64,000 nt of DNA from Candidatus Micrarchaeia archaeon (GCA_041663565.1 JBAYMJ010000004.1:582-64581); one strand, 5' to 3'; positions 48,675-64,000 are shown, counted from the stretch's first letter. Program-made: numbers and translations. The notes: generated by a model not told the origin, from the sequence alone.

Positions 48675-49241
48675 TTGGCTGGAACAGGCGACGCAGGCTC
48701 ATCCGAAAAGGCGATTGAGACGGTAGTGGACCGGCTCTACGACCTTGTCAACGCGAAGAAGTCGGTGACCGTAAGGGAAGTCGCCAAGGCGCTGTCGATT
48801 TCCGAGCCCCAGACCGAGAAGCTTGCCCGGCTGCTCGAGTCGTCCAAGCTGGTGCAGGTAAACTACAGCCTTTCTGAAATAATCATCACCATCGCCGAGG
48901 AGGCCAAGGCGGCCCCGGCCGCAGCGGCCACCGAGCCGGACCCAGCTGAGCGCGCCATCCTGTCCTCCTGCGACGAGGTAGCGAGGGCGAAGGCGGTGCT
49001 CGAGTTTTCCAGGCGCCAAGTCGAGCAGCTTTCAGGCAGGCTCGCACAGTCGGCTTCGCAGCAGGCTGCCGCAATCAAGGCAAAGGACGTGAGCCCGGCT
49101 TTGCGAAGGAGGCTTGAAGGCATCGGGTCGGACGCCGCCCAGGCGAAGGCCCACGCAACCGCCGCCCTGGCAGCGGCAACGGTTCTCGAGGAGGCCAGCC
49201 AGAGGCTTTCGCAGGTCGCGACACGCAAGGGTGCAAGATAA
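48675..49241 (+). CDS. Winged-helix-like / coiled-coil accessory protein of the pilus locus
   Basis: N-terminus …VTVREVAKALSISEPQTEKLARLLESSKLVQV resembles a wHTH. The rest is Ala/Gln-rich and helical. Confidence 0.35.
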   Translation: MAGTGDAGSSEKAIETVVDRLYDLVNAKKSVTVREVAKALSISEPQTEKLARLLESSKLVQVNYSLSEIIITIAEEAKAAPAAAATEPDPAERAILSSCDEVARAKAVLEFSRRQVEQLSGRLAQSASQQAAAIKAKDVSPALRRRLEGIGSDAAQAKAHATAALAAATVLEEASQRLSQVATRKGAR

Positions 49242-50737
49242 TGAAAATCCTAGACTCGTACAGCGTTGAAAGCGAGGGCATACCCGCCCTGATACAGATA
49301 GTGGACGACGAGTCGTTCACCAACATGTACATGCTACACCGCGCCAAGGTGCGCAAGTCAACTGAGGCGGTGATGGACTTCCTCAAGCAGCGCGTCATCG
49401 ACGCAGTCAACATCAGCGCGTCCGAGATAGCCAACTTCAGCGCGTGGGAAAAGCTTCGCGCGAACGTCAAGAAGAAGGCCCACGAGCTCGTGCGCACCGA
49501 GCTTGGCAACCTCGACCCCAAGGAGGAGGACTTGCTCGTGGGGAAGCTCCTGCAGGAGATGCTCGGCATCAGCGAGCTCGAGTTCTTCCTGAGCGACGAG
49601 CAGCTCGAGGAGGTCGTGGTCATCTCCTCCAAGGACCCCGTGTGGGTGTACCACCGCAAGTACGGCTGGCTCAAGACCAACGTGAACATCGACACCGAAG
49701 AGCAGATACGCAACTACGCGGCCATAATGGGAAGGCGGGTTGGCAAGCAGATAACAAACCTCGACCCGCTGATGGACGCGTACCTGCTTTCCGGCCACCG
49801 CGTCAACGCGACCCTCGCGCCGGTCTCGGCGAAGGGCAACAGCATCACCATACGCAAGTTCCGCAAGGACCCGTTCACGGTCATAGACTTCATGAACCCT
49901 AACCTCAACACCACCTCGGTCGAGGCGCTCGCGTTCATCTGGCTTGCGGTGCAGTACGAGATGAACCTCCTGGTTGGAGGAGGGACCGCAAGCGGGAAGA
50001 CGTCGTTCCTCAACGCAATACTCGCGTTCACCCCGCCGAACCAGCGCATAGTCAGCATCGAGGACACGCGCGAGCTCATGCTCCCGACGTACCTGCACTG
50101 GACGCCGATGGTCACGCGGCTGCCGAACCCCGAAGGCAAGGGCGGCGTGAGCATGCTCGACCTTGCGGTGAACTCCCTGCGCATGCGGCCCGACCGCATC
50201 GTGCTCGGCGAAGTGCGCAGGCAGAACGAGGCCGAGGTTCTCTTCGAGGCAATGCACACCGGACACTCAGTGTATTCCACCGTCCACGCGGATGACGCGT
50301 CCCAGATGAAGGCCAGGCTCATAAGCCCGCCCATCAACCTGCCCGAGCAGTTCCTTTCGGCCATGCACCTTGCGGTAGTGCAGTACCGCCAGCGCAGGAC
50401 GGGGATACGCAGGACGACCGAGATTGCCGAGATAATTCCCGGCGAGCGCGGGGTCAGCTTCAACGTGGTGTACCAGTGGAACGCCCAGGACGACACCCTC
50501 GAGAAGGTCGACGAGCACATGAGGGTCGACAACGAGATTAAGGCCCGGACCGGCATGAAGCAGAAGGAAATCACTGCAGACCTTGAGCAGAAGAAGGCAA
50601 TACTCCTTGCGATGTCCGACGCGGGGATAAGCAAGGTGGACGACGTGGGAATGATATTCGCAAAGTACTACAAGTCGCCCAAGCTGGTGGCCGAGAGCGC
50701 GCAGAAGGGCGCGAGGGAGATGCGCAAGCTCCTGTGA
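49241..50737 (+). CDS. Type IV pilus/archaellum assembly ATPase (FlaI/TadA/VirB11 family)
   Basis: Walker A LLVGGGTASGKTSFLNAIL, and …IVLGEVRRQNEAEVLFEAMHTGHS… typical of secretion ATPases. Confidence 0.8.
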   Translation: MKILDSYSVESEGIPALIQIVDDESFTNMYMLHRAKVRKSTEAVMDFLKQRVIDAVNISASEIANFSAWEKLRANVKKKAHELVRTELGNLDPKEEDLLVGKLLQEMLGISELEFFLSDEQLEEVVVISSKDPVWVYHRKYGWLKTNVNIDTEEQIRNYAAIMGRRVGKQITNLDPLMDAYLLSGHRVNATLAPVSAKGNSITIRKFRKDPFTVIDFMNPNLNTTSVEALAFIWLAVQYEMNLLVGGGTASGKTSFLNAILAFTPPNQRIVSIEDTRELMLPTYLHWTPMVTRLPNPEGKGGVSMLDLAVNSLRMRPDRIVLGEVRRQNEAEVLFEAMHTGHSVYSTVHADDASQMKARLISPPINLPEQFLSAMHLAVVQYRQRRTGIRRTTEIAEIIPGERGVSFNVVYQWNAQDDTLEKVDEHMRVDNEIKARTGMKQKEITADLEQKKAILLAMSDAGISKVDDVGMIFAKYYKSPKLVAESAQKGAREMRKLL

Positions 50738-50748
50738 GGTGACAAGCG

Positions 50749-51633
50749 GTGGAAAGCAAGATACCCATACTGCCGTTTTCGCTGGTGCCCTCGCAGTTCC
50801 TGTTCGTCCTGGCCGAAAAGACGCGGCCCATAGGCAACGCCGTGCAGGCTTGGATGCCCATACTCGGCGACGACCTGATGGGCGCGGGGTACGGGAACCT
50901 CGACGCCGACGCGTACGCGACCGCGTGCGTGCTCAACGCGTTCACGAACTTCTTCGTCTCGTTCCTCTTCATCAACCTGCTGGGCGTGCTTGCGCTCACG
51001 CCGATGCTGCTCCTCGCTGGCCTTGCCTCGGCCGGGATTGGGGTGGCGACGCTGGTCACCTGCCTGGTGTACCCGCAGATAGTCGCATCGCAGCGGAGGC
51101 GCGCAATCGACGCGAACATGATAACGGCCACGAGGCAGCTGCTCATCCAGATACGCTCCGGGGTGCCGCTGTTCAACGCGCTCCTTTCGGTGAGCACTGG
51201 GCACAACAAGGTGTCGGACGAGTTCTACAAGATAGTCGCGCAGCTCAACGCGGGCGTTGCTGAGGCCGACGCGCTCGCCGAGGCGTCCGCAACGTCGCCT
51301 TCGATGCAGTTCCGCAAGGTCGTGTGGCAGCTTTCCAACGCGCTCAAGGTGGGCACCGACGTGGGCCTTGCGCTCGAGGCCACGCTTTCCGAGCTTGAGC
51401 ACGAGCAGACCGAGCAGATCAAGAAGTATGCGCAGGAGCTCTCGCCGCTGACCATGATATACATGATAAGCGCAATCATAGTACCGAGCCTGGGAGTGAC
51501 CCTGCTCATAGTCATAGGCTCGCTGCTTTCGTTCCCGATTCCCAAGGCCCTGCTCGTGGTCATATTCATAATAATGGTCGGCTTCCAGGCTTTCTTCCTC
51601 GACTTCGTCTCAACCCGGAGGCCGGTGGTGTAG
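50749..51633 (+). CDS. T2SSF-domain membrane protein (TadB/FlaJ N-half-like)
   Basis: …TRQLLIQIRSGVPLFNALLSV…QLSNALKVGTDVGLALEA… T2SSF repeat with TM segments. Confidence 0.65.
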   Translation: MESKIPILPFSLVPSQFLFVLAEKTRPIGNAVQAWMPILGDDLMGAGYGNLDADAYATACVLNAFTNFFVSFLFINLLGVLALTPMLLLAGLASAGIGVATLVTCLVYPQIVASQRRRAIDANMITATRQLLIQIRSGVPLFNALLSVSTGHNKVSDEFYKIVAQLNAGVAEADALAEASATSPSMQFRKVVWQLSNALKVGTDVGLALEATLSELEHEQTEQIKKYAQELSPLTMIYMISAIIVPSLGVTLLIVIGSLLSFPIPKALLVVIFIIMVGFQAFFLDFVSTRRPVV

Positions 51634-51636
51634 GAC

Positions 51637-52671
51637 ATGAAGGCCAGCCGCATAATCATAAGGTCGTCCTACGCCCTTCCCAGGAGGTGGGTCGAAGCAA
51701 TCGGAAAGCTCCTTGCAAAGGGCGGTTTCGACACCACGAAGAACCGGTACCTGATAGGCCTCTGCATGCTCGGCGCGGCCTCGCTCGGCATCCTCGTTTT
51801 CCTCATATTCGCAGTAGTCACGGCCGACTACAGGTTCGCGGCGTTCTCCGGGCTCCTCGTGGTGATGGCCGAGGTCGGCGGCGCGTACGTCATCCTGAAG
51901 TCGACCGCGTACCAGAGGAGCAGGAAGATAGAGAGCGTGCTCCCGGACGCGCTGCGCATCATCTCGGCGAACATGCGCGCGGGGATGACCGTCGAGAACG
52001 CTCTCTGGTCGGCAGCAAGGCCGGAGTTTGGGCCGTTCAGGGACGAGCTGAGCAGGGTTGCTGCGGACACGTTCGGCGGGATGCCAATCGAGGACGCGCT
52101 GCTTGCGATGCCCGACCGGGTCGACTCGCGGCTTCTGGAACACTCGGTGAACCTGATGGTCGGAGGCCTGCGCCTGGGAGGCAGGATGACCGACCTGCTT
52201 GACCGCATCGCGGCAGACATCTCGTCGCGGCAGGGCCTGCAGCGCCAGATAGAGACATCGACTACGACGTACTCGATATTCATAGTGTTCTCCGCGCTCG
52301 TAGCGGCACCCATGCTGTTTGCGGTCTCGACGTTCTACTCCGAAATCAACGAGACTACGCTCACCGGCTTCACCTCAGGGATGCAGATAGACTCGGCCGC
52401 CAGGGCGCGCATCTCAAGTTCGGGCATCCCGATACTACTGCCTTCACAGCAGGACACCCAGACGGACCAGATAGCGTTCGCCGACATCCGGCTGTTCTCC
52501 CTAGGCGTGATAATCATCATCGCGTTCTTTGCCGCCCTGCTCATCGCCCAGATAAAGGAAGGCGAGTCGCACCGGGGGCTTTCCTACGTGCCGATATTCG
52601 TGGCAGTAGCGATGGCGGTGTTCATAACCAGCCTGTTCGGGCTTGAGACCGTGTTTGCGGGAATGGTCTGA
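51637..52671 (+). CDS. T2SSF-domain membrane protein (TadC/FlaJ C-half-like)
   Basis: …LRIISANMRAGMTVENALWSAA…VNLMVGGLRLGGRMTDLLDRIA… second T2SSF domain. Confidence 0.65.
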   Translation: MKASRIIIRSSYALPRRWVEAIGKLLAKGGFDTTKNRYLIGLCMLGAASLGILVFLIFAVVTADYRFAAFSGLLVVMAEVGGAYVILKSTAYQRSRKIESVLPDALRIISANMRAGMTVENALWSAARPEFGPFRDELSRVAADTFGGMPIEDALLAMPDRVDSRLLEHSVNLMVGGLRLGGRMTDLLDRIAADISSRQGLQRQIETSTTTYSIFIVFSALVAAPMLFAVSTFYSEINETTLTGFTSGMQIDSAARARISSSGIPILLPSQQDTQTDQIAFADIRLFSLGVIIIIAFFAALLIAQIKEGESHRGLSYVPIFVAVAMAVFITSLFGLETVFAGMV

Positions 52672-52772
52672 GCGCCCTTTGCGGCGCGCGGCTCCCTGCG
52701 GCCGGCAGACAGCAACGCATTAATAAGCGGGGAAAGTAATTTTTGCAGGACGATTCAAACGGTGGTATAGTT

Positions 52773-53237
52773 ATGTCAAAAGGCCAGACTGCGCTCGAAT
52801 ACCTTGTCACTTACGGCTGGGCCATACTCGGAATCATAATCATCGTGGGAGTCCTCATCAACTTCGGCGTGTTCAACCCGAGCAAGTGGGCCAACGTGCG
52901 CCAGCAGGGCGGCTTCTCCTCGCTTGCGGTGCTTGACCACAGCGTCATAGCGGGGGCCAACGGCAACATGACCATAGCGTTCCAGAACACCCGCGGGAAC
53001 TCCATCACCATCACGCGTGTGGTCACGATGGCGGGCGGGTGCGGCTGGTCGGGCTCGCAGCTCCTTACCGTTGACAACCCCGTATCCATCACCACAACTG
53101 CATGCAACCAGAGCACGGTAACCGGCGCAAGCGTCGGCTCCGCGTACGACTTTTCGGACGTCGCGGTGACCTACACCGACTCGGTGTCGAGCATGGCGCA
53201 CACCGAACGCGGGTTCATCAAGGGGCAATTCCAGTAG
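52773..53237 (+). CDS. Major pilin candidate, class-III signal peptide (MSKGQTALEYLVTYGWAILGIIIIVGVLI)
   Basis: Canonical KGQ-TALEYL archaeal prepilin N-terminus. The track ORF starts 30 nt upstream. Confidence 0.75.
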   Translation: MSKGQTALEYLVTYGWAILGIIIIVGVLINFGVFNPSKWANVRQQGGFSSLAVLDHSVIAGANGNMTIAFQNTRGNSITITRVVTMAGGCGWSGSQLLTVDNPVSITTTACNQSTVTGASVGSAYDFSDVAVTYTDSVSSMAHTERGFIKGQFQ

Positions 53238-55088: not shown

Positions 55089-55394
55089 CTAGCGCTTGGT
55101 CTTCATCTTCTCGCCGACGAAGCTGATGAGGTCGCGCAGCTTCTTTTCCATCGTGGGGTAGTCCACGAGCTCTTCCAGCCCGGTGCGCATCGACTCGATT
55201 TCGGGCTTCATCTTCAGGTACTCGCGCTCGAGCTGCTCAAGGCGCGACGAGAGCTCCTTTATCTCCTTCTGCGTCCTGCGCTGGTAGTCGATGACAAAGT
55301 ATATCACTACCGCGAGGATGACCATGGAGATGGTGAAAAGCCCGAACGCAATTGCCGACATGCCTAGGATTTCCATGTTGTCACGACCCCTCAA
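55089..55394 (-). CDS. Small N-terminal-TM plus coiled-coil protein
   Basis: …LGMSAIAFGLFTISMVILAVVIYFVI… followed by heptad-like KELSSRLEQLEREYLKMK. Confidence 0.35.
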   Translation of the reverse strand: MRGRDNMEILGMSAIAFGLFTISMVILAVVIYFVIDYQRRTQKEIKELSSRLEQLEREYLKMKPEIESMRTGLEELVDYPTMEKKLRDLISFVGEKMKTKR

Positions 55395-55683
55395 TAACCG
55401 CCGAAGTCAGGTCCTTGGCCTGCTTTGTGATGCTCTGCATCGCGTTGCGGGTGATTTTCTTCTCCAGGCCGGACTTTGCCGCCTGGATGTCCGAAGTCAT
55501 GGCCGCGGACTCCGCGTGGGCGGACTCGATGCGGGCCGAAAGCTCCGCGACGCTGGCCACAGCAGCCTCGTGCGTCTTCTTGGAAAGATGGTAGGCGACT
55601 GCAGCGGCCGCTACCGAGACCAGGAAACAGAATCCCGCAACGTAGAGGTCGTCTGCCATATTGCCATCAATACCTAGGCGCAC
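55381..55683 (-). CDS. Small N-terminal-TM plus coiled-coil protein (similar architecture to 55089..55394)
   Basis: …LYVAGFCFLVSVAAAAVAYHL… then an Ala/Glu-rich helix. Confidence 0.35.
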   Translation of the reverse strand: MRLGIDGNMADDLYVAGFCFLVSVAAAAVAYHLSKKTHEAAVASVAELSARIESAHAESAAMTSDIQAAKSGLEKKITRNAMQSITKQAKDLTSAVIEGS

Positions 55684-56156
55684 GTTCCGATAAGCGGCCG
55701 GGCACCGGTCTGCCTCATGGAGTAAGTCATGAAGTTGTACAGGATGTTGACCTGGGTTATCTCGAACATCTTGCCCGTTGCGGTATAGACGCAGGGGTTG
55801 CCGTTCGTGAAGCCGGTGATGTAGATTGCCTTCTCCTCGCCTGCCGTGAGGAGCTGGTAGCCCGTGCTCAGGTTGCGCACGTTGCCTGAGCCGTCGTCAA
55901 ACTGTATCTCGGTGATGTTGAGCTTGTCCGAGCCGCGGTTTGCGACCATCAAAAGGGCGGTGCCGTTGCCGAGCTGGACCGTAGTGATGGAAAACGGCGT
56001 GGCCGTCTTCCAATAGGACTGGGACTCCTTTTCCCTTGAGGGGCCGCCCACTTGCGGGAACCATCCTAGAAGCGCGATGATGACCATCGCCACAAGCAAT
56101 ACTGCGCCGAGGATGACGAGATATTCTGTCGCGCCCTGCCCCTTTGAACGAGCCAT
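55674..56156 (-). CDS. Pilin, class-III signal peptide (MARSKGQGATEYLVILGAVLLVAMVIIALLGW); start at 56156
   Basis: KGQ-GATEYL motif. Paralogous to the partial ORF at 63681..64000 (shared NPC…TGK…YEF/FEI core). Confidence 0.7.
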   Translation of the reverse strand: MARSKGQGATEYLVILGAVLLVAMVIIALLGWFPQVGGPSREKESQSYWKTATPFSITTVQLGNGTALLMVANRGSDKLNITEIQFDDGSGNVRNLSTGYQLLTAGEEKAIYITGFTNGNPCVYTATGKMFEITQVNILYNFMTYSMRQTGARPLIGTCA

Positions 56157-56281
56157 AGAATCACCTAGTTCATACGATTGGTTGGAATTATACAAGGGGA
56201 ACGGGAGGGGGAAATAAAAAAGTAGGTTTTGGGGAAAGACCACCCAATAACCCGTGCTGCTTGGGCGCCTAGCCAATCTGG

Positions 56282-57505
56282 CTATTTCCTTCTTCGCGCA
56301 AGCTCGGCCCGTACCTCGTCCGGGGTTATCCCTTTCTTTGCCATCAGCACAAGAAGGAAGTACGAAAGGTCCGCTATCTCCCACACGAGGTTCTCACGGT
56401 CCTGGTAATCTATGACCTCTGCTGACTCCTCGGCAACCTTGTCCAAGATTGTTGACTCGCTTGCGCTGATTGCCGAGGTGAAGGAGCCTTCCTGCGGGTC
56501 ATCCACCTTGCCCTTCACTACGGCATACAACTCGTCCAACCCGAACTTCCTGTTGCCAAAGCAGCTGTAGGTGCCGGTGTGGCAGGCGAAATTCTCCTGC
56601 CTGACGGTAAAGAGAAGGCTGTCGCGGTCGCAGTCGTACCTTGCAGTCAGCAGGGCCTGGAAGTTGCCCGAAGTCTCGCCCTTGGTCCACAACGTTTTTC
56701 GCGAGCGGCTGTAATACGCGGCCTTGCCAGTCTCAAACGTCCTGGCAACCGACTCCTTTGAGGACCACGCGAGCATCAGGACCTGCCCGTTCCCGTCTTG
56801 GACAATCGTCGGGATGAGGCCGGTCGCCGGGTCGAACCGCAGGACGCCAGCAAAAGCATCCGCAAGCCTTACCGCGCCGGTGTAGATGGACATCCCGAGC
56901 TGCGGGTTCATGCCGGCTTCCTCTATTTTTTTTATTTCTTCGGTTGTGGTGATTCCGCCAGCAATCGTGAGCTTGTTCTTAGTCGAAGCCTTGACCTGCA
57001 TTATGGCGCCAAAATCCACTCCCTGCATCAGGCCCTCGCGGTCGACGTTGGTGTAGAGAAATTCCGAGCATAACGGTTCGAGTTTTTTTGCAAGCCCAAC
57101 CGGCGTGTTGTCCGTCGCGTTGGTCCAGCCTTTGTCCACCACTTTCCCTTGCTTCGAGTCAAGGGCTACAACCAGCCTGTCCTTTGGAAGCTGGGAAAGG
57201 AACTCCGGCGTTGCCGCGGTGCCTATGATTATTTTTTTCGCGCCAGCAGCAAGCAGCTCGTTTGCCCGGCCGGCCGTGCGTATCCCGCCGCCCACGCGGC
57301 AGTCCGCAACCTTGCAAAGGGCCTTCACCAACTCCAGGTTGTCGCCCCTGCCTAGGGCCGCGTCCAAGTCGATGACTGCGACTTCGCCGTACTTCGCGAA
57401 CTCCGCCGCAAGCCCAAGTGGGTCGTCCCGCTCAAGGACTTTCTCCTTCCCCTGCCGCAGCTGGACCGCCTTTCCGCCCATCAGGTCAATGCTTGGTATG
57501 ATCAT
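56282..57505 (-). CDS. hisA: Trifunctional fusion HisA (ProFAR isomerase) - HisI (PR-AMP cyclohydrolase) - HisE (PR-ATP pyrophosphatase)
   Basis: HisA MIIPSIDLMGGKAVQL…IIGTAA…AGGIT. HisI …LMLAWSSKESVARTFETGKAAYYSRSRKTLWTKGETSGNFQ…FTVRQENFACHTGTYSCF. HisE …LDKVAEESAEVI…WEIADLSYFLLVLMAKKGITPDEV. Single ORF. Confidence 0.75.
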   Translation of the reverse strand: MIIPSIDLMGGKAVQLRQGKEKVLERDDPLGLAAEFAKYGEVAVIDLDAALGRGDNLELVKALCKVADCRVGGGIRTAGRANELLAAGAKKIIIGTAATPEFLSQLPKDRLVVALDSKQGKVVDKGWTNATDNTPVGLAKKLEPLCSEFLYTNVDREGLMQGVDFGAIMQVKASTKNKLTIAGGITTTEEIKKIEEAGMNPQLGMSIYTGAVRLADAFAGVLRFDPATGLIPTIVQDGNGQVLMLAWSSKESVARTFETGKAAYYSRSRKTLWTKGETSGNFQALLTARYDCDRDSLLFTVRQENFACHTGTYSCFGNRKFGLDELYAVVKGKVDDPQEGSFTSAISASESTILDKVAEESAEVIDYQDRENLVWEIADLSYFLLVLMAKKGITPDEVRAELARRRK

Positions 57506-57584
57506 TTTCTCACGCTCATCTATGCTTGTGTTCCCAGTGCCCGCCGGCCCCGGTGCCCGCGCCATTATATTCTTCTTCCCATGC

Positions 57585-58418
57585 TCATGTCCTTACGCTT
57601 ACTTTTCTTGCCGCAAGGTAATCCTTTATCTCTCCCACGGTCAGGTTCCCGTAGTGGACCAGCGAGGCCACCAATGCGGCATCCGCGTTTCCCTTTTCAA
57701 AAACATCTGCAAAATCGGACAGCTTTCCCGCTCCCCCCGACGCAATCACGGGTATGTTCACCGCATTGCTGACTGCGCAGGTCAGCTCCAAGTCGTACCC
57801 TTCCTTGGTGCCGTCGCGGTCCATCGAGGTCAAAAGGACCTCTCCCGCGCCGAGCTTCTCAGCGCGGCGGACCCACTCAACCGCGTCAATCCCTGTGGGA
57901 GTCCTTCCGCCATTTACGAAGACTTCCCAGCCTGCAACCCTGCCGGTTCCATCACCAGACGCCTTGCCCGCTGCTTTGCCCGCGGACTCGCCCATCGCTT
58001 TCCCCTCTGTTCCATACCTTTTTTTCGCATCAACCGCAAGGACGACAGCCTGGCTTCCGAACCTTTCGGCCGCCTCTGAAACCAACTGCGGGTTTTTCAC
58101 TGCTGCGGTGTTCAGCGATACTTTGTCAGCCCCTGCTGCCAATATCTCCTGCACCTGTTCAACCGTGGAAATGCCTCCACCGACGGTGAACGGGATGAAC
58201 ACTTCCCTTGCGACGCGTTCCACAAGCCCGACAATCATCCTCCGCTTTTCAACTGACGCGGTTATGTCAAGGAAAACCAGCTCGTCAGCACTGTCATCAT
58301 TGTACTTCTTGGCGAGGGCAACAGGGTCGCCTGCGTACTGCAAGTTTACGAAATTCGTCCCCTTGACCACCTGCCCGTCCCGAACGTCAAGGCAGGGGAT
58401 TATGCGTTTTGTCAGCAT
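57585..58418 (-). CDS. hisF: Imidazole glycerol phosphate synthase cyclase subunit HisF (with ~25-aa Gly/Lys-rich insertion)
   Basis: [20 protein letters not shown]…, …[10 protein letters not shown]…. Insertion …[30 protein letters not shown]…. Confidence 0.85.
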
Positions 58419-59140
58419 TCAAGCCACCTTCGAAGCAAGTCCAGCCCGAACTCGCCGCTTCTTTCCGGGTGGAACTGCACTGCAGTAACGTTCCCCTTCC
58501 GGACTGCGCTCGCAAAATCGCCGTAATAGTCAGTTGTCGCAGCGACGATGCCCAAGTCGTCGGGGACGACGAAATAGGAATTGACGAAATACGCGTAGCC
58601 TTCCTTGATAAGACCGGGTTGCATGTTTTTTCCACCTTCCGAGCAGTCTCCGCCTTTTCCATCTTTTGGGCAGCCCGCGCCTTTTCCGGCATTCGTGTTG
58701 TCCCCGCATTTTCCGTCTTTTGTGCCGTATTCTCCGTTCCCGTTCTTTCCTTCAGCAACAACTGGAATAATCCTGTTCCAGCCAACTTGCGGCACTTTTC
58801 CCTTTGAAAAGCGGATTACCTTTCCTTTGAACACGCCAAGGCCGGCCACCCCGGGGCTTTCCTCGCTCGACTCGAACAGCGCCTGCAGCCCGAGGCAGAT
58901 TCCAAGAAACGGCGTGCCTTTTGCGATGGCCCCGACTATGGCCTCGTCCAGCCCTTTTTTCCTCAGGCGTTCCATCATGTACCCGAACGAGCCCACTCCG
59001 GGAAATATTATCCTTTCAGCTGCAAGGATTTCCGAAGGGCTCGCGCTCAGCCTTGACCTTGCGCCAAGCCGGTCGAGCGCGTTCCTCACGCTCGAGATGT
59101 TTCCCGCCCCGTAGTCTACAATTACGACATCATCTGCCAT
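58412..59140 (-). CDS. hisH: Imidazole glycerol phosphate synthase glutaminase subunit HisH (with ~45-aa Gly/Lys/Cys-rich insertion)
   Basis: …[12 protein letters not shown]…, catalytic [11 protein letters not shown], …QFHPERS…. Insertion [48 protein letters not shown]. Confidence 0.85.
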
Positions 59141-59143
59141 AAA

Positions 59144-59737
59144 CTATATCGCCCCTTTCGTGCTCGGCATGCTGCCCTTTGCCCTCGCGTCCTTCGAGCA
59201 AGCCATCTTCAGGGCTTTGGCGAACGCCTTGAAAGCCGCCTCAATCTTGTGGTGGTCGCTCCTGCCGCAGGGTATGCGGACGACTACGTTGGCCCCCAGG
59301 CCGGAAGCGAATCCCTGGAAGAAATCCTCAATCGTGTCAGTGTCGAAGCCGCCGCAGAACTGGCGCTCGAACTTGGCGTCGTACTGCACGAAGGGCCTGC
59401 CGCAGACGTCAACTGCGACAATCGCAAGCGCCTCATCCATCGGGAACACGAAGTATCCTGCACGGTTTATTCCCTTCTTGTCCGAAAGGGCGGCCCTGAA
59501 AGCCTGGCCTAGCGCGATGCCGCAGTCCTCCACAAGGTGGTGCGAGTCAACCTCGAGGTCGCCTTCCGCCTTGACTTCCAGGTTGAAGAGGCCGTGCTTT
59601 GCGAAGGACTCCAGCATGTGGCTGAAAAAGCCGATTGGCGTCCCAACCGAGTACCTTCCGTTCCCGTCCACGTTCAACGACAGGGTTATGGCCGTCTCCT
59701 TGGTCTTCCGCACGATTTTTGCCTTACGCATAAGCAC
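59144..59737 (-). CDS. hisB: Imidazoleglycerol-phosphate dehydratase
   Basis: …RKTKETAITLSLNVDG… and IGPD histidine motifs (…HHLVEDCGIALG…, …GRSDHHKIEA…). Confidence 0.85.
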   Translation of the reverse strand: MLMRKAKIVRKTKETAITLSLNVDGNGRYSVGTPIGFFSHMLESFAKHGLFNLEVKAEGDLEVDSHHLVEDCGIALGQAFRAALSDKKGINRAGYFVFPMDEALAIVAVDVCGRPFVQYDAKFERQFCGGFDTDTIEDFFQGFASGLGANVVVRIPCGRSDHHKIEAAFKAFAKALKMACSKDARAKGSMPSTKGAI

Positions 59738-59747
59738 TCACATCCTC

Positions 59748-60449
59748 CTAAACATTCCCAGACCCGTCTCTTGGTTTCTCCGCCCTTTTTGCCGACTTTA
59801 CCGATTTTGTCCAATTCATTACGTCCGCGTTAATGCCCCGAAAATCCGGCTTGGTAACCCAGATGCACTTGCCTCCCCCTTGCTTGATTCGGGCCATAAA
59901 TGGCGCGTCGCCTTCCGAGTCCGCAATCCCGGCAACCATTGAAAGCGGAGTGCCCGCGTCCGAACAGGCCCGCAGGAGCGCGGCCTCCTTTTGCTTTCCC
60001 TCAATCACCGGGCCGACAAGGCCTACTGCCTTGCCGCCGGCCATCCGCAACCTGCTTGCAAGCACAACCGCATCCTTGAGCCCGAGCCTTCCCGCGACCC
60101 TTTCCGCAATCGGCTCGTAGCTTGCGGTCAGAATGCACACGCGGGCCCCCAGCGATTCAACACCTGAAAAAAATCCTGCAGCTCCGGGAAACAGCTTTGC
60201 ATCATCGGCCACCCTTGCAAACGCCTCATTTGGTATCGGGTCCCTTGACGCAACCCGCTCCAAAAGCACCCTCACGTCCGAGCCATTCTCCTCGGCATCG
60301 AGCCTCGCGGCTTCCTTTTCCAGGCTGAACCCCCTGAAAAATGCGAATATGGTGTCGCCATCGACGATGGTGCCGTCAAGGTCCGACGCTATGAGAAAAC
60401 CCTCGAGGGGCTTTGCGCAGTATTTTTTTCCGGTTGCAGTCGTGCTCAT
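59748..60449 (-). CDS. HAD-family phosphatase within the his operon (candidate histidinol-phosphatase)
   Basis: DLDGTIVDGD HAD motif I. Positioned between hisC and hisB, where a histidinol-phosphatase is expected. The assignment is inferential. Confidence 0.5.
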   Translation of the reverse strand: MSTTATGKKYCAKPLEGFLIASDLDGTIVDGDTIFAFFRGFSLEKEAARLDAEENGSDVRVLLERVASRDPIPNEAFARVADDAKLFPGAAGFFSGVESLGARVCILTASYEPIAERVAGRLGLKDAVVLASRLRMAGGKAVGLVGPVIEGKQKEAALLRACSDAGTPLSMVAGIADSEGDAPFMARIKQGGGKCIWVTKPDFRGINADVMNWTKSVKSAKRAEKPRDGSGNV

Positions 60450-60455
60450 GCAAAA

Positions 60456-61532
60456 TCAAATCCCATCAAAGCTTTTCCCCAATATCCTGCCAAGTTCCGC
60501 TGCAAGGCGCCGGTTCTCTTCCCCGGTCCCGACTGTTATGCGGATGCAGTTTCCAAGCATCGGAAGCGACGACCGGTCGCGGACTATAATGCTCGCCTCT
60601 TCTGCCAGCCGTCCCTGTACTTCCTTAGAGCTGATTCCCTCAGGAAAGCGCACCAGCACAAAGTTCGCCTGGCCGGGAAACACCTCAAGCCCGAGCCTTC
60701 GTAGGCCGCCCGAGAGCCTCTCGCGCTCCGCCATTATAGCGGACACGTTTTCGAGCATCCGCGCCTTCCCTTCGCGCAGCGCTTTCGACGCCAGAATCTG
60801 GCTCAGGGTGCCCACGCCGTACGGGAACCTTATCTTTCTCATTACCTTGATGGCTCCGGGCGACGAGATGCAGTAACCTACGCGGAGCGCGGCAAGCCCC
60901 CACGCCTTGGACAGCGTCCGCGAGACAATCAGGTTCGCAAACTCGTCAACAAGGGGCCTGACGGTTTTGCCGCAGAACTCGAAATACGCCTCGTCCACGA
61001 ACACCATCCCGTTGAACTCTCTCGCCAGCCTGCGGATTGAGGCTTCACCAACCGGCCTTCCGGTCGCGGCGTCGGGGCTTGCGAGGAAAACGATGCGCGT
61101 ATCCGAATCCACGCAATCCAATACCGCGTCCACATCCAATTCAAAGTCGCGCGTCATAAGGGCCTGCCGCTCCGTAGCGCCCGCCACTTGCGAACGCACG
61201 CCCCACATCGAGTACCCGGGCTGGACGGTCACGACGTTGTCGCCAGCGCCGCAAAACGCCGATGCGGCAATGGAGATTATGTCGTCCGAGCCGTTTCCGA
61301 CAAGCAGCTGCCCTTCACCGGCGCCGCAGTAGCCGCCGAGCAACCCCGCCAGCTCGGTGCAGTCCGAATCGGGATACCGGTTCAGGCTCACGCCAGGATA
61401 GTCAACTGCGCTGCCGAACGGGTTCTCGTTGGCATCCAGGAAAGCGCCGGCTTTCTTGTAAAGGTCCCGTGCGCAGACGTATGACTCTAGCTGGGCGACT
61501 TCCGGCCTTGCCCTGATGGTCTTGCTTATCAT
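60456..61532 (-). CDS. hisC: Histidinol-phosphate aminotransferase
   Basis: …LDANENPFGS…, class II aminotransferase fold, …SKAWGLAALRVGY…. Confidence 0.8.
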   Translation of the reverse strand: MISKTIRARPEVAQLESYVCARDLYKKAGAFLDANENPFGSAVDYPGVSLNRYPDSDCTELAGLLGGYCGAGEGQLLVGNGSDDIISIAASAFCGAGDNVVTVQPGYSMWGVRSQVAGATERQALMTRDFELDVDAVLDCVDSDTRIVFLASPDAATGRPVGEASIRRLAREFNGMVFVDEAYFEFCGKTVRPLVDEFANLIVSRTLSKAWGLAALRVGYCISSPGAIKVMRKIRFPYGVGTLSQILASKALREGKARMLENVSAIMAERERLSGGLRRLGLEVFPGQANFVLVRFPEGISSKEVQGRLAEEASIIVRDRSSLPMLGNCIRITVGTGEENRRLAAELGRILGKSFDGI

Positions 61533-61533
61533 A

Positions 61534-63447
61534 TCAATTCATCCCTTTGTCCTCGAACCGCTTTTTCACCGAGTTCGCGTGGGCTTCGAGCCCTTCGGCC
61601 CTTGCAAGCACCTCGATGGTCCCGGCAAGCTCCGAAAGCCCGTTGCGCTCAAGCTTGAGGTAGTTGACCTCGCGCACGAAGTCCCTTGCCGAAAGGCCTG
61701 AATACATCCTTGCGGCCCCGCCGGTAGGAAGCACGTGGTTCGGCCCCGCCGCATAGTCGCCTGCCGAGACGCTGGTGTAGTTCCCGATGAATATCGCCCC
61801 TGCGTTCCTGACTTTGTCAAGGACCGTGAACGGCCTGTCAACCGCAAGCAGGAGGTGCTCGGGCGCGTACTCGTTCGAAAAGTCTATCGCCTCGCCGACG
61901 TCGCCTACGACCAGGATTGCGCCGTTTGCTGACAGCGAAGTGCGGATTATCTCCCTTCGCGGAAGCAAAAGCATCTGGCGCGAAACCTCGGCCTCGACTT
62001 CGTCCGCAAGCTCTTTTGAAACCGCAAGCAGCACCGCAGCCGCATCCGGACTGTGCTCGGCCTGCGCCAGCATCTCGGCAGCCAAGAACCTCGCGTCGGC
62101 AGTCCGGTCGGCTATTGCCAGAAGCTCGCTCGGGCCTGCAGGCGAGTCTATGGATACGAGTGCGCGGGACAATGCCTCAAGCTTTGCCGCAGCCACGTAC
62201 GAGTTGCCTGGCCCCACTATTTTCCTGACTCGCGGGACGGTCCGCGTCCCGAGGGCCATTGCAGCTATCGCCTGGGCCCCGCCGAGCTTGAACACCTTGC
62301 CAACCCCGGCAACGTCAGCCGCAACAAGCACAGCGGGGTTGCACTTTCCTTCCCTGTCCGGCGGGGTGCAAAGGACGATGTCGCGGACTCCCGCCACCTT
62401 TGCAGGCACCACGCCCATTATGACCGACGAAGGGTATGCAGCGGAGCCGCCCGGCGCGTATACCCCCACCGAATCAAGCGGGACAACCAGCTTGCCGCCC
62501 AGGCCGCCTTCCATCTTCATCTCCCATTTTTGCGGAAGCTCCTTCTGCGAAAAGCGCGCCACGTTTTCCGCCGCCTTCTTCAGCGCCGCAATGACCTCGG
62601 GCTTGACTTTCGAATATGCTTCCTTGGTCTCCTCGGCTGTAACAGCGAACTGCCTTGGAAGCAGCTTGACCTTGTCGAACCGTTCGGTATAGGATGAGAG
62701 CGCCTCGTCGCGGCCCTTTGATACGGTGTCGAAGACTTCGGCCGCAAACACCCTTGCCTCGGCTGCCTTGCTGAAATTGCGGTAGAGTATCCTCTTGCGG
62801 TCCCCTGCGGAAATCCCGTCCAGCCGGCCCCGAAGAACGGAGAAGTCCCCGCGAAACGCGCCTACTGCGCCGTCGACCTGGCCGCGCTTTTGCGCAAGCG
62901 AAGCGGGGTTGGCGACGATGACTGCGCTTGAGCGCAAAAGCTCCTGCGACTCCTCCAGGCCGTTCGCGGCAAGGGTGCGGCCGGTGCTCGAAAGGTCGAT
63001 TATCGCATCAGCTATCCCCGCGGATACGCTGGCCTCTATCGCGCCGTCAAGCTGGATGACCTTCGCGTCGATGCCGTTTTCCGAAAGGAACTTTGCAGCA
63101 AGGCGCGGGAACGCGGTTGCCACGCGGCCTGGCTTGCCGCAGCCGCCCTTGGGGACGGCATAGACCAGCCTGCAGAAGCCGAAGGGAAGCGGAAGAAGCG
63201 TCACCACTTCGGAGCCCTTTTCCGCAACCATGTCGGAACCGGTTATCCCGATGTCCGCAACGCCTGACTCTACGTAAGTGGGTATGTCGCGCGCCCGGGC
63301 AAGGAGGAAGCGGTACTTTCCGCACGGCGAGGCCGAGTAGTACCCCCGGTCCCTGCCGGAGTTCTCAAACCCAAGCGCCCTGGCAAGAAGCTGGGCCGGG
63401 GCCGCCAGCGCGCCCTTGTTGGGCAGTGCTATGATGAAGAGACTCAC
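61534..63447 (-). CDS. hisGD: Bifunctional fusion: ATP phosphoribosyltransferase (HisG, short form) N-terminal ~200 aa plus histidinol dehydrogenase (HisD) C-terminal ~430 aa
   Basis: HisG: MSLFIIALPNKG…DIPTYVESGVADIGITGSDMV…AIIDLSSTGRTLAANGL. HisD: …VGVYAPGGSAAYPSSVIMGVVPAKVAG…QAEHSPDA…NEYAPEHL…HVLPTGGAARMYSGL. A single 637-aa ORF with no stop between the halves. Confidence 0.75.
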   Translation of the reverse strand: MSLFIIALPNKGALAAPAQLLARALGFENSGRDRGYYSASPCGKYRFLLARARDIPTYVESGVADIGITGSDMVAEKGSEVVTLLPLPFGFCRLVYAVPKGGCGKPGRVATAFPRLAAKFLSENGIDAKVIQLDGAIEASVSAGIADAIIDLSSTGRTLAANGLEESQELLRSSAVIVANPASLAQKRGQVDGAVGAFRGDFSVLRGRLDGISAGDRKRILYRNFSKAAEARVFAAEVFDTVSKGRDEALSSYTERFDKVKLLPRQFAVTAEETKEAYSKVKPEVIAALKKAAENVARFSQKELPQKWEMKMEGGLGGKLVVPLDSVGVYAPGGSAAYPSSVIMGVVPAKVAGVRDIVLCTPPDREGKCNPAVLVAADVAGVGKVFKLGGAQAIAAMALGTRTVPRVRKIVGPGNSYVAAAKLEALSRALVSIDSPAGPSELLAIADRTADARFLAAEMLAQAEHSPDAAAVLLAVSKELADEVEAEVSRQMLLLPRREIIRTSLSANGAILVVGDVGEAIDFSNEYAPEHLLLAVDRPFTVLDKVRNAGAIFIGNYTSVSAGDYAAGPNHVLPTGGAARMYSGLSARDFVREVNYLKLERNGLSELAGTIEVLARAEGLEAHANSVKKRFEDKGMN

Positions 63448-63680
63448 TTTCCATATTCTCCCCTCCGGAGCAAACCCGCAGGTAACGGGCTGACGATTTC
63501 AAAAAGGAGGATGGACGCGAGTAGGGACGAAGAAGAAGCCTTAGTGAACAAAATCCCTTTCCATTGCTCCCGAACCTTTTGCGAAAAGACATTGTGCGAA
63601 GACAGGTTAATAACCGTTGCCACTGCCCGAAAGGGGCGTTGGGAAAAGGCAGGGAACCCTACGGAGGCCCAGCCGGGAAC

Positions 63681-64000
63681 CTATGAACAGAAGCCGACGA
63701 AACGCTCTGCGCCCACCTGGCGCATGTCGGAAATCAGGCCCTGCGAGTAGAGGAAGGACAGGTTTGAGAACTCGTAAGGCGTGCCGACCTTTCCGGTGCC
63801 GGCGCACGGGTTGGAGACCGTGAACGCCAGGTTGGTGAAGTCCGCCTCCTCGCCCGCATTCATCACCTGGTTCGGCGAAAAGACGGCGATGGTGCCGTTG
63901 GACTCGTCGCCGAACTCAATCGAGGACAGCATGAGCTTCTCGGCGCCCTGGTTGCGTATGCGGAGGCTGATGTTTGAGCCGGTAAGCTTCGAAGTCACTA
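63681..64000 (-). CDS. Pilin paralog, C-terminal part (the gene start lies beyond the window end)
   Basis: …NAGEEADFTNLAFTVSNPCAGTGKVGTPYEFSNLSFLYSQ… aligns with the 55674..56156 pilin (…TAGEEKAIYITGFTNGNPCVYTATGKMFEITQVNILYN…). Confidence 0.45.
   Translation of the reverse strand, partial: VTSKLTGSNISLRIRNQGAEKLMLSSIEFGDESNGTIAVFSPNQVMNAGEEADFTNLAFTVSNPCAGTGKVGTPYEFSNLSFLYSQGLISDMRQVGAERFVGFCS

What the first reader, a model, noticed from the sequence alone, without database searches (positions are those of the whole stretch)
55674..64000. Complete histidine operon in bacterial-like order with rare fusions, bracketed by two pilin paralogs
Minus-strand operon: hisGD fusion, hisC, HAD phosphatase, hisB, hisH, hisF, and a hisA-hisIE fusion. 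The order G-D-C-(N)-B-H-F-A-IE follows the enterobacterial hisGDCBHAFI logic, unlike the scattered his genes of many archaea. Two fusions stand out. HisG-HisD joins the first and last enzymes of the pathway, and HisA-HisI-HisE joins steps 4, 3 and 2. The operon is immediately flanked on both sides by paralogous small pilins (55674..56156 and 63681..>64000), as if a compact, possibly horizontally acquired his cassette was inserted between tandem pilin genes.
Basis: partly seen in the sequence, partly recalled or inferred. Interest (0 to 1): 0.65.

Follow-up and report, generated by a model that had tools for sequence, protein, structure and literature searches.

The report
Acquired mosaic histidine operon among pilins
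A tiny symbiotic-type archaeon (Micrarchaeia) carries a complete histidine-synthesis operon with two fused enzymes. About ten close relatives lack it at this site, so it looks like a pathway gained by gene transfer from other archaea, not from bacteria.

Summary
Window 56282..63447 (minus strand) holds seven tightly packed genes covering all ten histidine steps: HisG(short)-HisD, HisC, a HAD-IB phosphatase, HisB, HisH, HisF and HisA-HisI-HisE. Paralogous class-III-signal pilin genes lie on both sides.

Both fusions are real, because diverged homologs share them. G-D is rare (about 19 clusters, those named being Micrarchaeota). A-IE is common in uncultured archaea (at least 120 clusters, including Lokiarchaeum).

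The insertion idea is strongly supported. At least ten metagenomic relatives are collinear with the window at about 80% DNA identity, carry the pilin genes directly in tandem, and have no his genes within 10 kb. The window is nested inside their tree.

The bacterial flavour is not supported: nearest relatives of every part are archaeal, and GC3 is host-like.

New findings:
- The operon is a mosaic. GD-C-HAD matches one Micrarchaeota operon type and B-H-F-A·IE matches another.
- It lacks the AbrB-ACT gene and the leader tRNA-His that precede GD-type operons in relatives.
- It has no HisZ and no HisG regulatory domain.

Verdict: a real, moderately interesting new variant of a known kind.

The parts
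61534..63447 (-). hisGD: a fusion of short-form ATP phosphoribosyltransferase (step 1, residues about 1-200) and histidinol dehydrogenase (steps 9-10, residues about 205-637). It has no HisG_C regulatory domain.
   Evidence: Pfam and NCBIfam matches. 18 fused homologs align through the junction. The AF2 model has pLDDT 80 and pTM 0.69, with helices at 181-186 and 188-199 across the junction and no low-confidence linker. Closest PDB relatives are HisD 6an0 and HisG 2vd3.
60456..61532 (-). hisC, histidinol-phosphate aminotransferase (step 7).
   Evidence: TIGR01141 scores 294.7 bits, above its cutoff. It is 48-56% identical to HisC of GD-type Micrarchaeota operons and only 30-34% identical to the other operon types.
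59748..60449 (-). HAD-IB phosphatase, the candidate histidinol-phosphate phosphatase (step 8).
   Evidence: PF12710 and TIGR01488 match. The DLDGT motif is present. It sits between hisC and hisB in every fully read GD-type locus and is fused to HisC in L002/L003 (562 aa). Nearest PDB relatives are phosphoserine phosphatases, and only weakly. The activity is inferred.
59144..59737 (-). hisB, imidazoleglycerol-phosphate dehydratase (step 6). This is the first gene of the 3' block.
   Evidence: NF002111 scores 249 bits. It is 74% identical to L004 and 70% to L091, against 46-53% to GD-type operons. The affinity switch is visible from about residue 20 onward.
58412..59140 (-). hisH, the glutaminase subunit (step 5). 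It carries a lineage-specific 40-aa Gly/Lys/Asp-rich insert at 58640..58759.
   Evidence: TIGR01855 scores 195 bits in two stretches. The alignment shows the insert is absent from all relatives. A 27-nt tandem repeat lies at 58628..58687.
57585..58418 (-). hisF, the cyclase subunit (step 5). It carries a 29-aa insert in the beta5-alpha5 loop at 57930..58016.
   Evidence: TIGR00735 scores 368 bits. It is 64% identical to L004, which has a shorter insert at the same site.
56282..57565 (-). hisA-hisI-hisE fusion covering steps 4, 3 and 2. The likely start is at 57505, giving 407 aa.
   Evidence: Pfam finds three domains. NF002747 HisIE scores 191 bits (cutoff 187). The HisA models score 154-157 bits, below their equivalog cutoffs. 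At least 120 homolog clusters of 401-422 aa (mostly 407) share the architecture.
63448..63680 (-). Operon leader and promoter region. It keeps a 21-nt motif at 63544..63564 that is shared with the leaders of GD-type operons. It lacks their tRNA-His and their upstream AbrB-ACT gene.
   Evidence: The motif occurs once with 2 mismatches, against 0.00 expected by chance. Leader alignment. No tRNA found. No AbrB-ACT homolog in the window plus L010.
63681..64000 (-). The 3' two-thirds of pilin paralog pilA2; the full gene runs to contig position about 64181. This part has no close ortholog and probably belongs to the inserted DNA.
   Evidence: The 5' 130 nt are 100% identical to pilA1, after which identity to every relative drops to about 50%.
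56238..64000 (.). DNA present in this genome but absent from the orthologous site of at least 10 relatives. The full insert is about 7.8 kb and its left end lies about 3 nt beyond the window end.
   Evidence: blastn collinearity breaks at ext 1750 and ext 9518. Boundary alignments. tblastn finds no his genes in 77 pilin loci.
55674..56156 (-). pilA3, a class-III-signal (type IV pilin-like) protein native to the locus.
   Evidence: Orthologs at 82-91% aa identity in L013-L023, with a conserved promoter. PF04021 scores 21.6 bits, below its gathering score of 23.7. AF2 predicts an N-terminal helix at 7-32 followed by an all-beta domain, at low confidence.
49241..53237 (+). Neighbouring type IV pilus assembly genes: a T2SSE ATPase, two T2SSF membrane proteins and another pilin-like gene at 52743..53237. 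This is native context that is collinear in the relatives.
   Evidence: Pfam; collinearity.

Best explanation
Window 56282..63447 is an intact operon of seven genes in a Candidatus Micrarchaeia genome that encodes all ten steps of histidine biosynthesis. Two of its proteins are fusions: HisG(short form)-HisD, and HisA-HisI-HisE.

The operon is not native to this site. It lies on a segment of about 7.8 kb that sits between pilin genes which are directly tandem in the closest relatives. The segment appears to include the 3' part of pilin gene pilA2. The likely left junction is a recombination inside the conserved 5' pilin sequence. The right junction lies about 45 nt after the hisA-IE stop codon.

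The operon is a mosaic of two archaeal operon lineages:
- The leader plus GD-C-HAD derive from the Micrarchaeota 'GD-type' operon, whose order is AbrB-ACT regulator, tRNA-His, GD, C, HAD, B, H, A, F, IE.
- B-H-F-A·IE derive from the widespread archaeal B-H-F-A·IE block, and are closest to another Micrarchaeota lineage (L004).

How it probably works (inferred):
- The genes are co-transcribed from the retained GD-type promoter and leader, or by read-through from pilA2.
- A-IE joins three consecutive steps (2, 3 and 4), which allows fixed stoichiometry and possibly hand-over of intermediates.
- G-D most likely arose by loss of the stop codon between adjacent genes, and it couples the amounts of the first and last enzymes.
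- The HisG part has neither a regulatory domain nor a HisZ partner. The cognate AbrB-ACT gene and the leader tRNA-His are missing. Flux is therefore probably poorly feedback-regulated, or controlled in a way not yet known.
- The net effect is a gain of histidine prototrophy in a DPANN lineage whose cultivated relative lacks nearly all amino-acid pathways.
For: Shown here:
- Domain content and full-length, above-cutoff family matches.
- Conserved fusion architectures.
- The organism: NCBI names this very HisGD protein 'Candidatus Micrarchaeia archaeon'.
- Empty sites. L013-L023 are collinear at 78-83% nucleotide identity for up to 10.6 kb downstream and at about 72-77% upstream. Their pilins are directly tandem, and tblastn finds no his genes.
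- The window is nested within these relatives in a neighbour-joining tree built on 2,838 ungapped columns.
- Breakpoints.
- Mosaic pattern. GD, C and N are 53-64%, 48-56% and 31-48% identical to GD-type loci, which is within that group's own spread. B, H, F and A·IE are 74%, 55%, 64% and 83% identical to L004, but only 46-53%, 31-37%, 48-53% and 32-44% identical to GD-type loci. Those values lie below that group's internal range.
- L004 is itself a Micrarchaeon, judged from hits to its DRG GTPase.
- The leader motif is shared with GD-type leaders.
- No HisZ or HisRS in 66 kb. No HisG_C domain.
- GC3 is host-like.

From the literature:
- The cultivated Ca. Micrarchaeum harzensis lacks almost all amino-acid biosynthesis (PMC8975820).
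Against: - No donor with the same chimeric arrangement was found. The best GD relative is only 64% identical.
- No integrase, target-site duplication or terminal repeats mark the insert. Only the pilin 5' direct repeats flank it. The mechanism of entry is therefore inferred.
- The divergent 3' part of pilA2 could reflect fast pilin evolution rather than co-transfer.
- Whether the sister genomes lack histidine biosynthesis altogether was not tested directly. The only evidence is indirect: none of the 120 best HisD hits or 120 best A·IE hits lies on contigs of their sizes.
- Enzyme activities, the role of the HAD protein and expression are untested.
- The identity matrices are not phylogenies.
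Confidence: 0.72

Rival explanations
1. One reading: a compact his cassette of bacterial origin, in enterobacterial order, was transferred into an archaeon.
For: The GD-C-(N)-B-H order resembles E. coli hisGDC[NB]HAF[IE]. GD-type relatives have exactly the order G-D-C-N-B-H-A-F-IE.
Against: - The best unfused HisD hits that carry a name are Bathyarchaeota.
- The HisG part matches archaeal M. thermautotrophicus HisG (2vd3) best among PDB entries.
- A·IE relatives are Asgard and DPANN archaea.
- The HAD is a HAD-IB, SerB-like protein. No match to the enterobacterial bifunctional HisB phosphatase domain was seen.
- GC3 is host-like.
- In the window F precedes A.
Confidence: 0.06
2. The operon is ancestral at this locus, and was precisely deleted in all the relatives.
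For: The pilin 5' regions form direct repeats on both sides of the operon (D1). These could mediate deletion.
Against: - The window is nested within relatives that all lack the operon, so at least three independent losses would be needed.
- The relatives' pilA-pilA3 spacers are ordinary terminator and promoter sequence with no his remnants.
- No close orthologs of GD or A·IE were found on contigs of the relatives' sizes.
Confidence: 0.07
3. The window's arrangement (GD-C-N-B-H-F-A·IE) is the ancestral Micrarchaeota operon. The GD-type and L004-type operons each replaced one half, so there was no recombination in the window's ancestry.
For: L091 has the same gene order, G-C-HAD-B-H-F-A·IE-D. 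The order itself is therefore not unique.
Against: - It needs two independent block replacements instead of one.
- The operon is an insertion relative to the window's closest relatives.
- L091's G, C and HAD are unrelated or distant: 30% identity for C, and no hit for G or N.
Confidence: 0.1
4. Metagenome assembly chimera: his genes from another population were stitched into the pilin locus at the repeated pilin 5' sequence.
For: A 130-nt stretch is 100% identical between pilA1 and pilA2. That is the kind of repeat that can mis-join contigs.
Against: - The contig leaves and re-enters the same locus at adjacent positions, 7.8 kb apart.
- The right junction has no long repeat.
- The JGI contig (the window) is identical over 12.4 kb, including both junctions, to a contig from a second public assembly deposited in ENA.
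- GC3 is uniform.
Confidence: 0.03

Closest known systems
Enterobacterial his operon hisGDC[NB]HAF[IE] (E. coli/Salmonella; Fani et al. 2007, PMC1963479)
   Same: One compact operon encodes the whole pathway. The order G, D, C, phosphatase, B, H is the same. I and E are fused.
   Different: - G and D are one polypeptide.
- The phosphatase is a separate HAD-IB protein, not the N-terminal domain of HisB.
- F precedes A, and A is fused to IE.
- HisG is a short form without a regulatory domain.
- There is no His-rich leader-peptide attenuator; the leader uORF has a single His codon.
- The sequences have archaeal affinity.
Micrarchaeota 'GD-type' his operon
   Same: - The HisG-HisD fusion is 53-64% identical.
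- HisC and the HAD phosphatase are of the same type.
- The leader motif is homologous.
   Different: - Relatives have separate A, F and IE in the order H-A-F-IE.
- Relatives have an upstream 130-aa AbrB-ACT gene in 7 of 7 loci.
- Relatives have a leader tRNA-His(GUG) in 5 of 6 loci.
- Relatives have no flanking pilins.
- The window lacks all three of these features and has a foreign B-H-F-A·IE block.
Archaeal HisA/F-HisIE fusion (cluster 787.1 of Padalko et al. 2024, PMC11237513) and the B-H-F-A·IE block of Ca. Lokiarchaeum ossiferum (L006), L004 and L091
   Same: The A-I-E architecture of about 407 aa is the same, at 60-83% identity. The neighbouring order B-H-F-A·IE is the same.
   Different: - In those genomes G is a separate gene (long or short form); D is separate (L006, L091) or not at the locus (L004), and C is of another type.
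- The paper reported only four assemblies. Here at least 120 clusters were seen.
Other multi-step His fusions: yeast HIS4 (HisI-E-D), HisNB, and HisHF (HIS7)
   Same: The same principle applies: neighbouring his genes fuse into multifunctional proteins.
   Different: - A G-D fusion is not listed in the his-fusion survey or the archaeal fusion survey.
- Here G is N-terminal to D.
- Related rare forms seen here are HisZ-HisG-HisD (P0368), HisD-HisZ (P0380) and HisD-HisC (P0375).
Short-form ATP-PRT HisG(S)/HisZ hetero-octamer (PDB 1usy, 1z7m, 5m8h)
   Same: The catalytic two-domain HisG lacks the C-terminal histidine-binding domain.
   Different: - No HisZ gene is present in the operon or within 66 kb.
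- The C-terminus continues directly into HisD.
- The sequence is slightly closer to the catalytic core of long-form archaeal HisG (2vd3).

Membership tests
Complete histidine biosynthesis operon | Genes are present for steps 1-7 and 9-10 (HisG, E, I, A, H/F, B, C, D). | tested here: met
   NCBIfam equivalog models score above cutoff for hisG, hisD, hisC, hisB, hisH, hisF and hisIE. HisA is recognised by Pfam PF00977 and by HisA models at 154-157 bits, below their cutoffs.
Complete histidine biosynthesis operon | A histidinol-phosphate phosphatase (step 8) is present. | tested here: inconclusive
   A HAD-IB protein with a DxDGT motif sits between hisC and hisB in every fully read GD-type locus and is fused to HisC in L002/L003. 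No curated HolPase model matches it. Its PDB neighbours are phosphoserine phosphatases.
Short-form ATP-PRT (HisG-S) working with HisZ | HisG lacks the C-terminal regulatory domain (PF08029). | tested here: met
   Only PF01634 is found. The HisD match begins at residue 217-228.
Short-form ATP-PRT (HisG-S) working with HisZ | A HisZ (HisRS paralog) partner is encoded. | tested here: not met
   tblastn with HisRS and HisZ queries finds nothing in the window plus L010, 66 kb in all. The rest of the genome could not be searched.
HisA (ProFAR isomerase) | Scores above the curated equivalog cutoff (TIGR00007 or PRK13585). | tested here: not met
   Scores are 154 and 157 bits against cutoffs of 229 and 243. 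It still scores far better as HisA than as HisF (44 bits). A separate bona fide HisF exists, so the HisA function is inferred.
Bifunctional HisIE | PRA-CH and PRA-PH domains lie in one chain and score above the NF002747 cutoff. | tested here: met
   191 bits against a cutoff of 187.
Archaeal type IV pilin (class III signal peptide protein) | An N-terminal [KR]G followed by a small residue, then a hydrophobic helix of about 20 aa. | tested here: met
   The sequence MARSKG|QGATEYLVILGAVLLVAMVIIALLG is present. AF2 predicts a helix at 7-32 with pLDDT about 86.
Archaeal type IV pilin (class III signal peptide protein) | Reaches the Pfam PF04021 gathering score. | tested here: not met
   21.6 bits against 23.7. 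The model is only 27 positions long.
Archaeal type IV pilin (class III signal peptide protein) | Assembly machinery (ATPase and platform protein) is encoded nearby. | tested here: met
   A T2SSE gene at 49241..50737 and two T2SSF genes at 50749..52671.
Integrative mobile element or genomic island | An integrase or transposase, a tRNA or att target, and target-site duplication or terminal repeats. | tested here: not met
   The insert holds only his genes plus part of a pilin gene. No tRNA is present. The only flanking repeats are the pilin 5' regions.

The most novel reading that the evidence does not exclude
GD-type his operons of Micrarchaeota may carry a previously undescribed archaeal histidine-control module. 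It would consist of an AbrB-ACT protein together with a structurally conserved tRNA-His embedded in the mRNA leader, which could couple operon expression to tRNA-His processing or charging. In that module the HisG-HisD fusion would replace HisZ or the regulatory domain as the means of product feedback. The window would then be a natural 'escape' variant that lost the module when it was transferred. That would make it a ready-made comparison for testing how the module works.
Probability: 0.12. Interest if true: 0.75.

Novelty: new variant of a known kind. Interest (0 to 1): 0.5.

Why it matters
- Histidine biosynthesis is the textbook case for how operons and gene fusions evolve. This locus shows three processes in one place: fusion of adjacent genes (G-D, A-IE), block-wise recombination between two operon lineages, and relocation of the whole pathway.
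- About ten sequenced 'before' states (empty sites) are available for comparison, which is rare for metabolic operons.
- It documents a DPANN archaeon gaining a complete amino-acid pathway from other archaea. DPANN archaea are usually thought to be auxotrophic and host-dependent, so this bears on how fixed their dependence is.
- The G-D fusion lacks every known ATP-PRT regulatory device, which raises a testable question about feedback control.
- Public annotation hides both fusions. They are named only 'histidinol dehydrogenase' and 'HisIE'.

Tried and rejected
- The look-up of P0001 failed. The identical P0247 worked and gave L010.
- I looked for genes shared between the window and the relatives' loci, to calibrate organismal distance. 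None were found.
- I looked for HisZ/HisRS and for the AbrB-ACT regulator in the window. Neither was found.
- GC and GC3 show no compositional sign of recent transfer.
- A search for a crossover inside hisB could not place it more finely than between the end of the HAD gene and about codon 20 of hisB.
- The single-sequence AF2 model of the pilin had pLDDT 52, too poor for a fold search. I used only its secondary structure.
- A repeat search for target-site duplications or terminal inverted repeats at the insert ends found nothing beyond the pilin 5' repeats.
- Literature searches for a G-D fusion, and for a tRNA-His in an archaeal his leader, found nothing.
- I considered whether the leader motif is a His leader peptide. 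It reads as M-x-x-x-x-L/V-H with a single His codon, and it also resembles the 5' end of hisG. This is unresolved.

Full report
**1. Observation**

Pfam and NCBIfam assign them as follows.

| Coordinates | Product | Evidence |
|---|---|---|
| 61534..63447 | HisG + HisD in one 637-aa chain | TIGR00070 168 bits; TIGR00069 505 bits; no HisG_C domain |
| 60456..61532 | HisC | TIGR01141 above cutoff |
| 59748..60449 | HAD-IB phosphatase | TIGR01488 above cutoff |
| 59144..59737 | HisB (IGPD only) | NF002111 249 bits |
| 58412..59140 | HisH | TIGR01855 195 bits |
| 57585..58418 | HisF | TIGR00735 368 bits |
| 56282..57565 | HisA + HisI + HisE in one chain | HisIE model above cutoff; HisA models 154-157 bits, below their cutoffs |

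- Gene spacing runs from -7 to +19 nt, which is operon-like.
- The G/D junction lies near 62,770-62,900 and the A/I junction near 56,820-56,860.
- Rfam and ARAGORN find no RNA gene in the region.

**2. The fusions are real**

*G-D.*
- The fused G-D architecture recurs in about 19 clusters (at 90% identity) that are 42-64% identical to the window protein. All those that carry a name are Candidatus Micrarchaeota.
- They align without gaps through a conserved junction (A2).
- An AlphaFold model built from that alignment has pLDDT 80 and pTM 0.69. Helices at 181-186 and 188-199 span the junction, with no low-confidence linker between the HisG core and HisD.
- An exhaustive HMMER scan of 1.84 billion representatives shows how rare the architecture is. 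It found the Micrarchaeota cluster, one 673-aa protein at 41% identity, and a 933-aa HisZ-HisG-HisD triple fusion. HisD-HisC and HisD-HisZ fusions also turned up.

*A-IE.*
- This fusion is common. All 120 best hits (60-83% identity) are proteins of 401-422 aa (mostly 407) with the same three domains, and they include Ca. Lokiarchaeum ossiferum.
- A 2024 survey of archaeal fusions mentions HisA/F-HisIE in four assemblies. It does not mention HisG at all and says it did not find the HisIE-HisD fusion in Archaea (PMC11237513).
- The classic review of his fusions does not list G-D either (PMC1963479).

**3. Organism**

NCBI holds this very HisGD protein as MFA6329365.1, from 'Candidatus Micrarchaeia archaeon'. 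It is therefore a DPANN archaeon. It names the proteins only 'histidinol dehydrogenase' and 'HisIE'.

**4. Relatives' operons**

*GD-type.*
- Six loci with the GD fusion for which DNA was available (L001, L002/L003, L007, L008, L009, L090) share one architecture. L007 is cut off by its contig end after the HisA-like gene. A seventh contig gave only a gene list. The order is:
  - a 130-aa AbrB/SpoVT + ACT protein;
  - a leader;
  - GD, C, HAD, B, H, A (238 aa), F (251 aa) and IE (191 aa).
- This is the enterobacterial order.
- A, F and IE are unfused, and no pilins flank the operon.
- In L002/L003 HisC and the HAD protein are fused (562 aa). This is Rosetta-stone support for the HAD protein acting as the histidinol-phosphate phosphatase.

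*Other operon types.*
- The closest A·IE relatives (80-83% identity, L004/L005) have the order G(long)-B-H-F-C-A·IE.
- Their DRG GTPase matches, among named hits, almost only Micrarchaeota, so that organism is also a Micrarchaeon.
- Lokiarchaeum has C-B-H-F-A·IE-G-D.
- L091 has G-C-HAD_2-B-H-F-A·IE-D.

**5. The operon is a mosaic**

Percent identity of the window's proteins to each group:

| Gene | GD-type loci | GD-type internal range | L004 | L091 |
|---|---|---|---|---|
| GD | 53-64 | 53-62 (one close pair 82) | G 36; no D in locus | D 43; no hit for G |
| C | 48-56 | 46-54 | 34 | 30 |
| HAD | 31-48 | 33-47 | none in locus | no hit |
| B | 46-53 | 54-62 | 74 | 70 |
| H | 31-37 | 43-58 | 55 | 47 |
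| F | 48-53 | 57-65 | 64 | 53 |
| A·IE | 32-36 (A), 41-44 (IE) | 45-51 (A), 61-66 (IE) | 83 | 65 |

- The first three genes sit within the GD-type group's own spread. The last four fall below it and match L004 best.
- HisF shares an insertion site with L004.
- The switch lies between the end of the HAD gene and about codon 20 of hisB.
- The leader upstream of hisGD keeps a 21-nt motif from GD-type leaders. It occurs once, with 2 mismatches, against 0.00 expected by chance. The 5' block therefore came with its promoter region.

**6. Insertion between pilins**

*The pilin genes.*
- L010 extends the contig 1.75 kb beyond the window end (offset).
- It shows three same-strand pilin paralogs: pilA1, pilA2, then the his operon, then pilA3. 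Pairwise identities are 58%, 47% and 43%.
- More class-III-signal genes lie nearby, and a T2SSE/T2SSF pilus assembly locus lies at 49.2-52.7 kb.

*The relatives.*
- A metagenome scan with the pilin alignment returned 77 loci.
- In L013-L023 the pilA3 orthologs are 82-91% identical. The DNA downstream is collinear with the window for up to 10.6 kb at 78-83% identity, and the upstream DNA at about 72-77%.
- In every one of these loci, one or two pilA1-like genes are followed directly by pilA3.
- tblastn with all seven his proteins found nothing in any of the 77 loci. A positive control worked.
- A neighbour-joining tree on 2,838 ungapped columns places the window inside these relatives, next to two 1.2-Mb contigs. 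One insertion is therefore far more parsimonious than repeated deletions.

*The boundaries.*
- The right boundary is about 45 nt after the hisA-IE stop, where the conserved pilA3 promoter begins at window position about 56,237.
- On the left, the pilA2 promoter region resembles (about 52-74% identity) that of the relatives' second pilin copy.
- Its first 130 coding nucleotides are 100% identical to pilA1.
- Identity to everything then drops abruptly to about 50%, and the usual T-rich terminator is missing.
- The C-terminal domain of pilA2 has no ortholog better than 46%, against 84-89% for pilA1 and pilA3.
- I infer that the incoming DNA carried a pilin 3' part plus the operon, and that it recombined within the conserved pilin 5' sequence. 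Fast pilin divergence is the alternative.
- No integrase, tRNA or target-site duplication is present.

**7. Origin**

- GC3 of the his genes (0.63-0.79) lies within the window's spread of 0.72 +/- 0.11.
- The best unfused HisD hits that carry a name are Bathyarchaeota.
- The best PDB match to the HisG part is an archaeal long-form enzyme, 2vd3.
- A·IE relatives are archaeal.
- Nothing points to bacteria.
- None of the 120 best HisD hits or 120 best A·IE hits lies on contigs of the size of the sister genomes. The sisters therefore lack close orthologs. Whether they lack the whole pathway could not be tested.
- The cultivated Ca. Micrarchaeum harzensis lacks nearly all amino-acid biosynthesis (PMC8975820).

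**8. How it probably works (inferred)**

- The seven genes supply all ten steps. The HAD-IB protein is the step-8 candidate. HAD-type histidinol-phosphate phosphatases are known (PMC12220765), but this one resembles phosphoserine phosphatases only weakly.
- A·IE joins the consecutive steps 2, 3 and 4.
- G-D joins the first and last enzymes. It is best explained as a read-through fusion of adjacent genes.
- The HisG part lacks both the regulatory domain and a HisZ partner.
- The window also lacks the AbrB-ACT gene and the leader tRNA-His of its GD-type relatives. Canonical feedback and the cognate transcriptional control therefore appear to be absent.

**9. Side finding in the relatives**

- Five of six GD-type loci carry a tRNA-His(GUG) gene 22-65 nt upstream of hisGD, on the same strand.
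- Rfam scores these at 40-53 bits.
- They have an 8-bp acceptor stem that includes G-1:C73. RNAalifold counts six base pairs with compensatory changes.
- L001 also has a separate canonical tRNA-His next to HisRS.
- I found no literature on this arrangement.

**10. Verdict**

- The insertion hypothesis is supported by empty sites.
- A bacterial origin is not supported.
- The operon is a mosaic of two archaeal lineages.
- This is a new variant of a known kind, of moderate interest.

Noticed in passing
L001 9907-9978; L002 9863-9935; L007 2534-2605; L008 2680-2751; L090 4167-4239 (not in the window): A structurally conserved tRNA-His(GUG) gene lies in the leader of GD-type his operons, 22-65 nt before hisGD on the same strand. 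Compensatory changes are seen in the acceptor and anticodon stems. L001 also has a second, canonical tRNA-His next to HisRS. The window has no such tRNA, only a possible 22-nt remnant near 63462-63482.
   Followed up: partly
L001 9356-9748; L002 9306-9698; L007 1979-2371; L008 2042-2434; L009 9509-9901; L090 3576-3971: A conserved 130-aa protein with an AbrB/SpoVT (MazE-like) domain and an ACT domain is encoded immediately upstream of every GD-type his operon (7 of 7 contigs). It is a candidate histidine-responsive regulator. No homolog exists in the window or in L010.
   Followed up: partly
window 63541-63564 (minus strand) and the leaders of L001, L002, L007, L008: A 21-nt leader motif, ATGG(A/C)AAGG..TTT..TTCAC, reads as a short uORF (MERDFVH* in the window) with one conserved His codon. 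It also resembles the 5' end of hisG itself. Its role is unclear; it could be an operator, a relic duplication or a leader peptide.
   Followed up: partly
L002 11868-13556 and L003 5242-6930: HisC and the HAD phosphatase are fused into one 562-aa protein in one Micrarchaeota lineage. This joins consecutive steps 7 and 8 and supports the HAD protein acting as the histidinol-phosphate phosphatase.
   Followed up: partly
window 58640-58759 (HisH) and 57930-58016 (HisF): Gly/Lys/Asp-rich low-complexity inserts of 40 and 29 aa interrupt HisH and the beta5-alpha5 loop of HisF. The HisH insert contains a 27-nt tandem repeat at 58628-58687 and three Cys residues. L004 HisF has a shorter insert at the same site.
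   Followed up: partly
L010 984-1130 and 1601-1750 (just beyond the window end): The first ~130 coding nucleotides of pilA1 and pilA2 are 100% identical, although the rest of the two genes is only about 50% identical. This suggests gene conversion or a recombination scar.
   Followed up: yes
proteins P0368, P0380, P0375 (from the representative library): Other rare HisD fusions exist elsewhere: HisZ-HisG-HisD (933 aa), HisD-HisZ (804 aa) and HisD-HisC (772 aa).
   Followed up: partly
window 6586-9339, 9384-11954 and 13436-16198 (minus strand): Three proteins of 856-920 aa lie here. Two have Gly_rich_2 plus Peptidase_S74 (endosialidase-chaperone, phage tail-fibre-like) domains. The third has a class III signal peptide followed by Laminin_G_3 lectin domains. 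They may be pilus-tip or surface adhesins.
   Followed up: no
window 35395-35534 (minus strand): Rfam finds a 140-nt tRNA (57 bits) that ARAGORN misses. It is presumably an intron-containing archaeal tRNA.
   Followed up: no
window 55089-55394 and 55381-55683 (minus strand): Two small paralogous proteins, each with a membrane anchor and a coiled coil (95 and 92 aa), follow pilA3. They are conserved at 77-89% aa identity (lower, 54-73%, in the two most distant loci) in all relatives of the locus.
   Followed up: no
L090 11312-12499: An IS66-family transposase lies directly downstream of one GD-type his operon, which hints at how these operons move.
   Followed up: no
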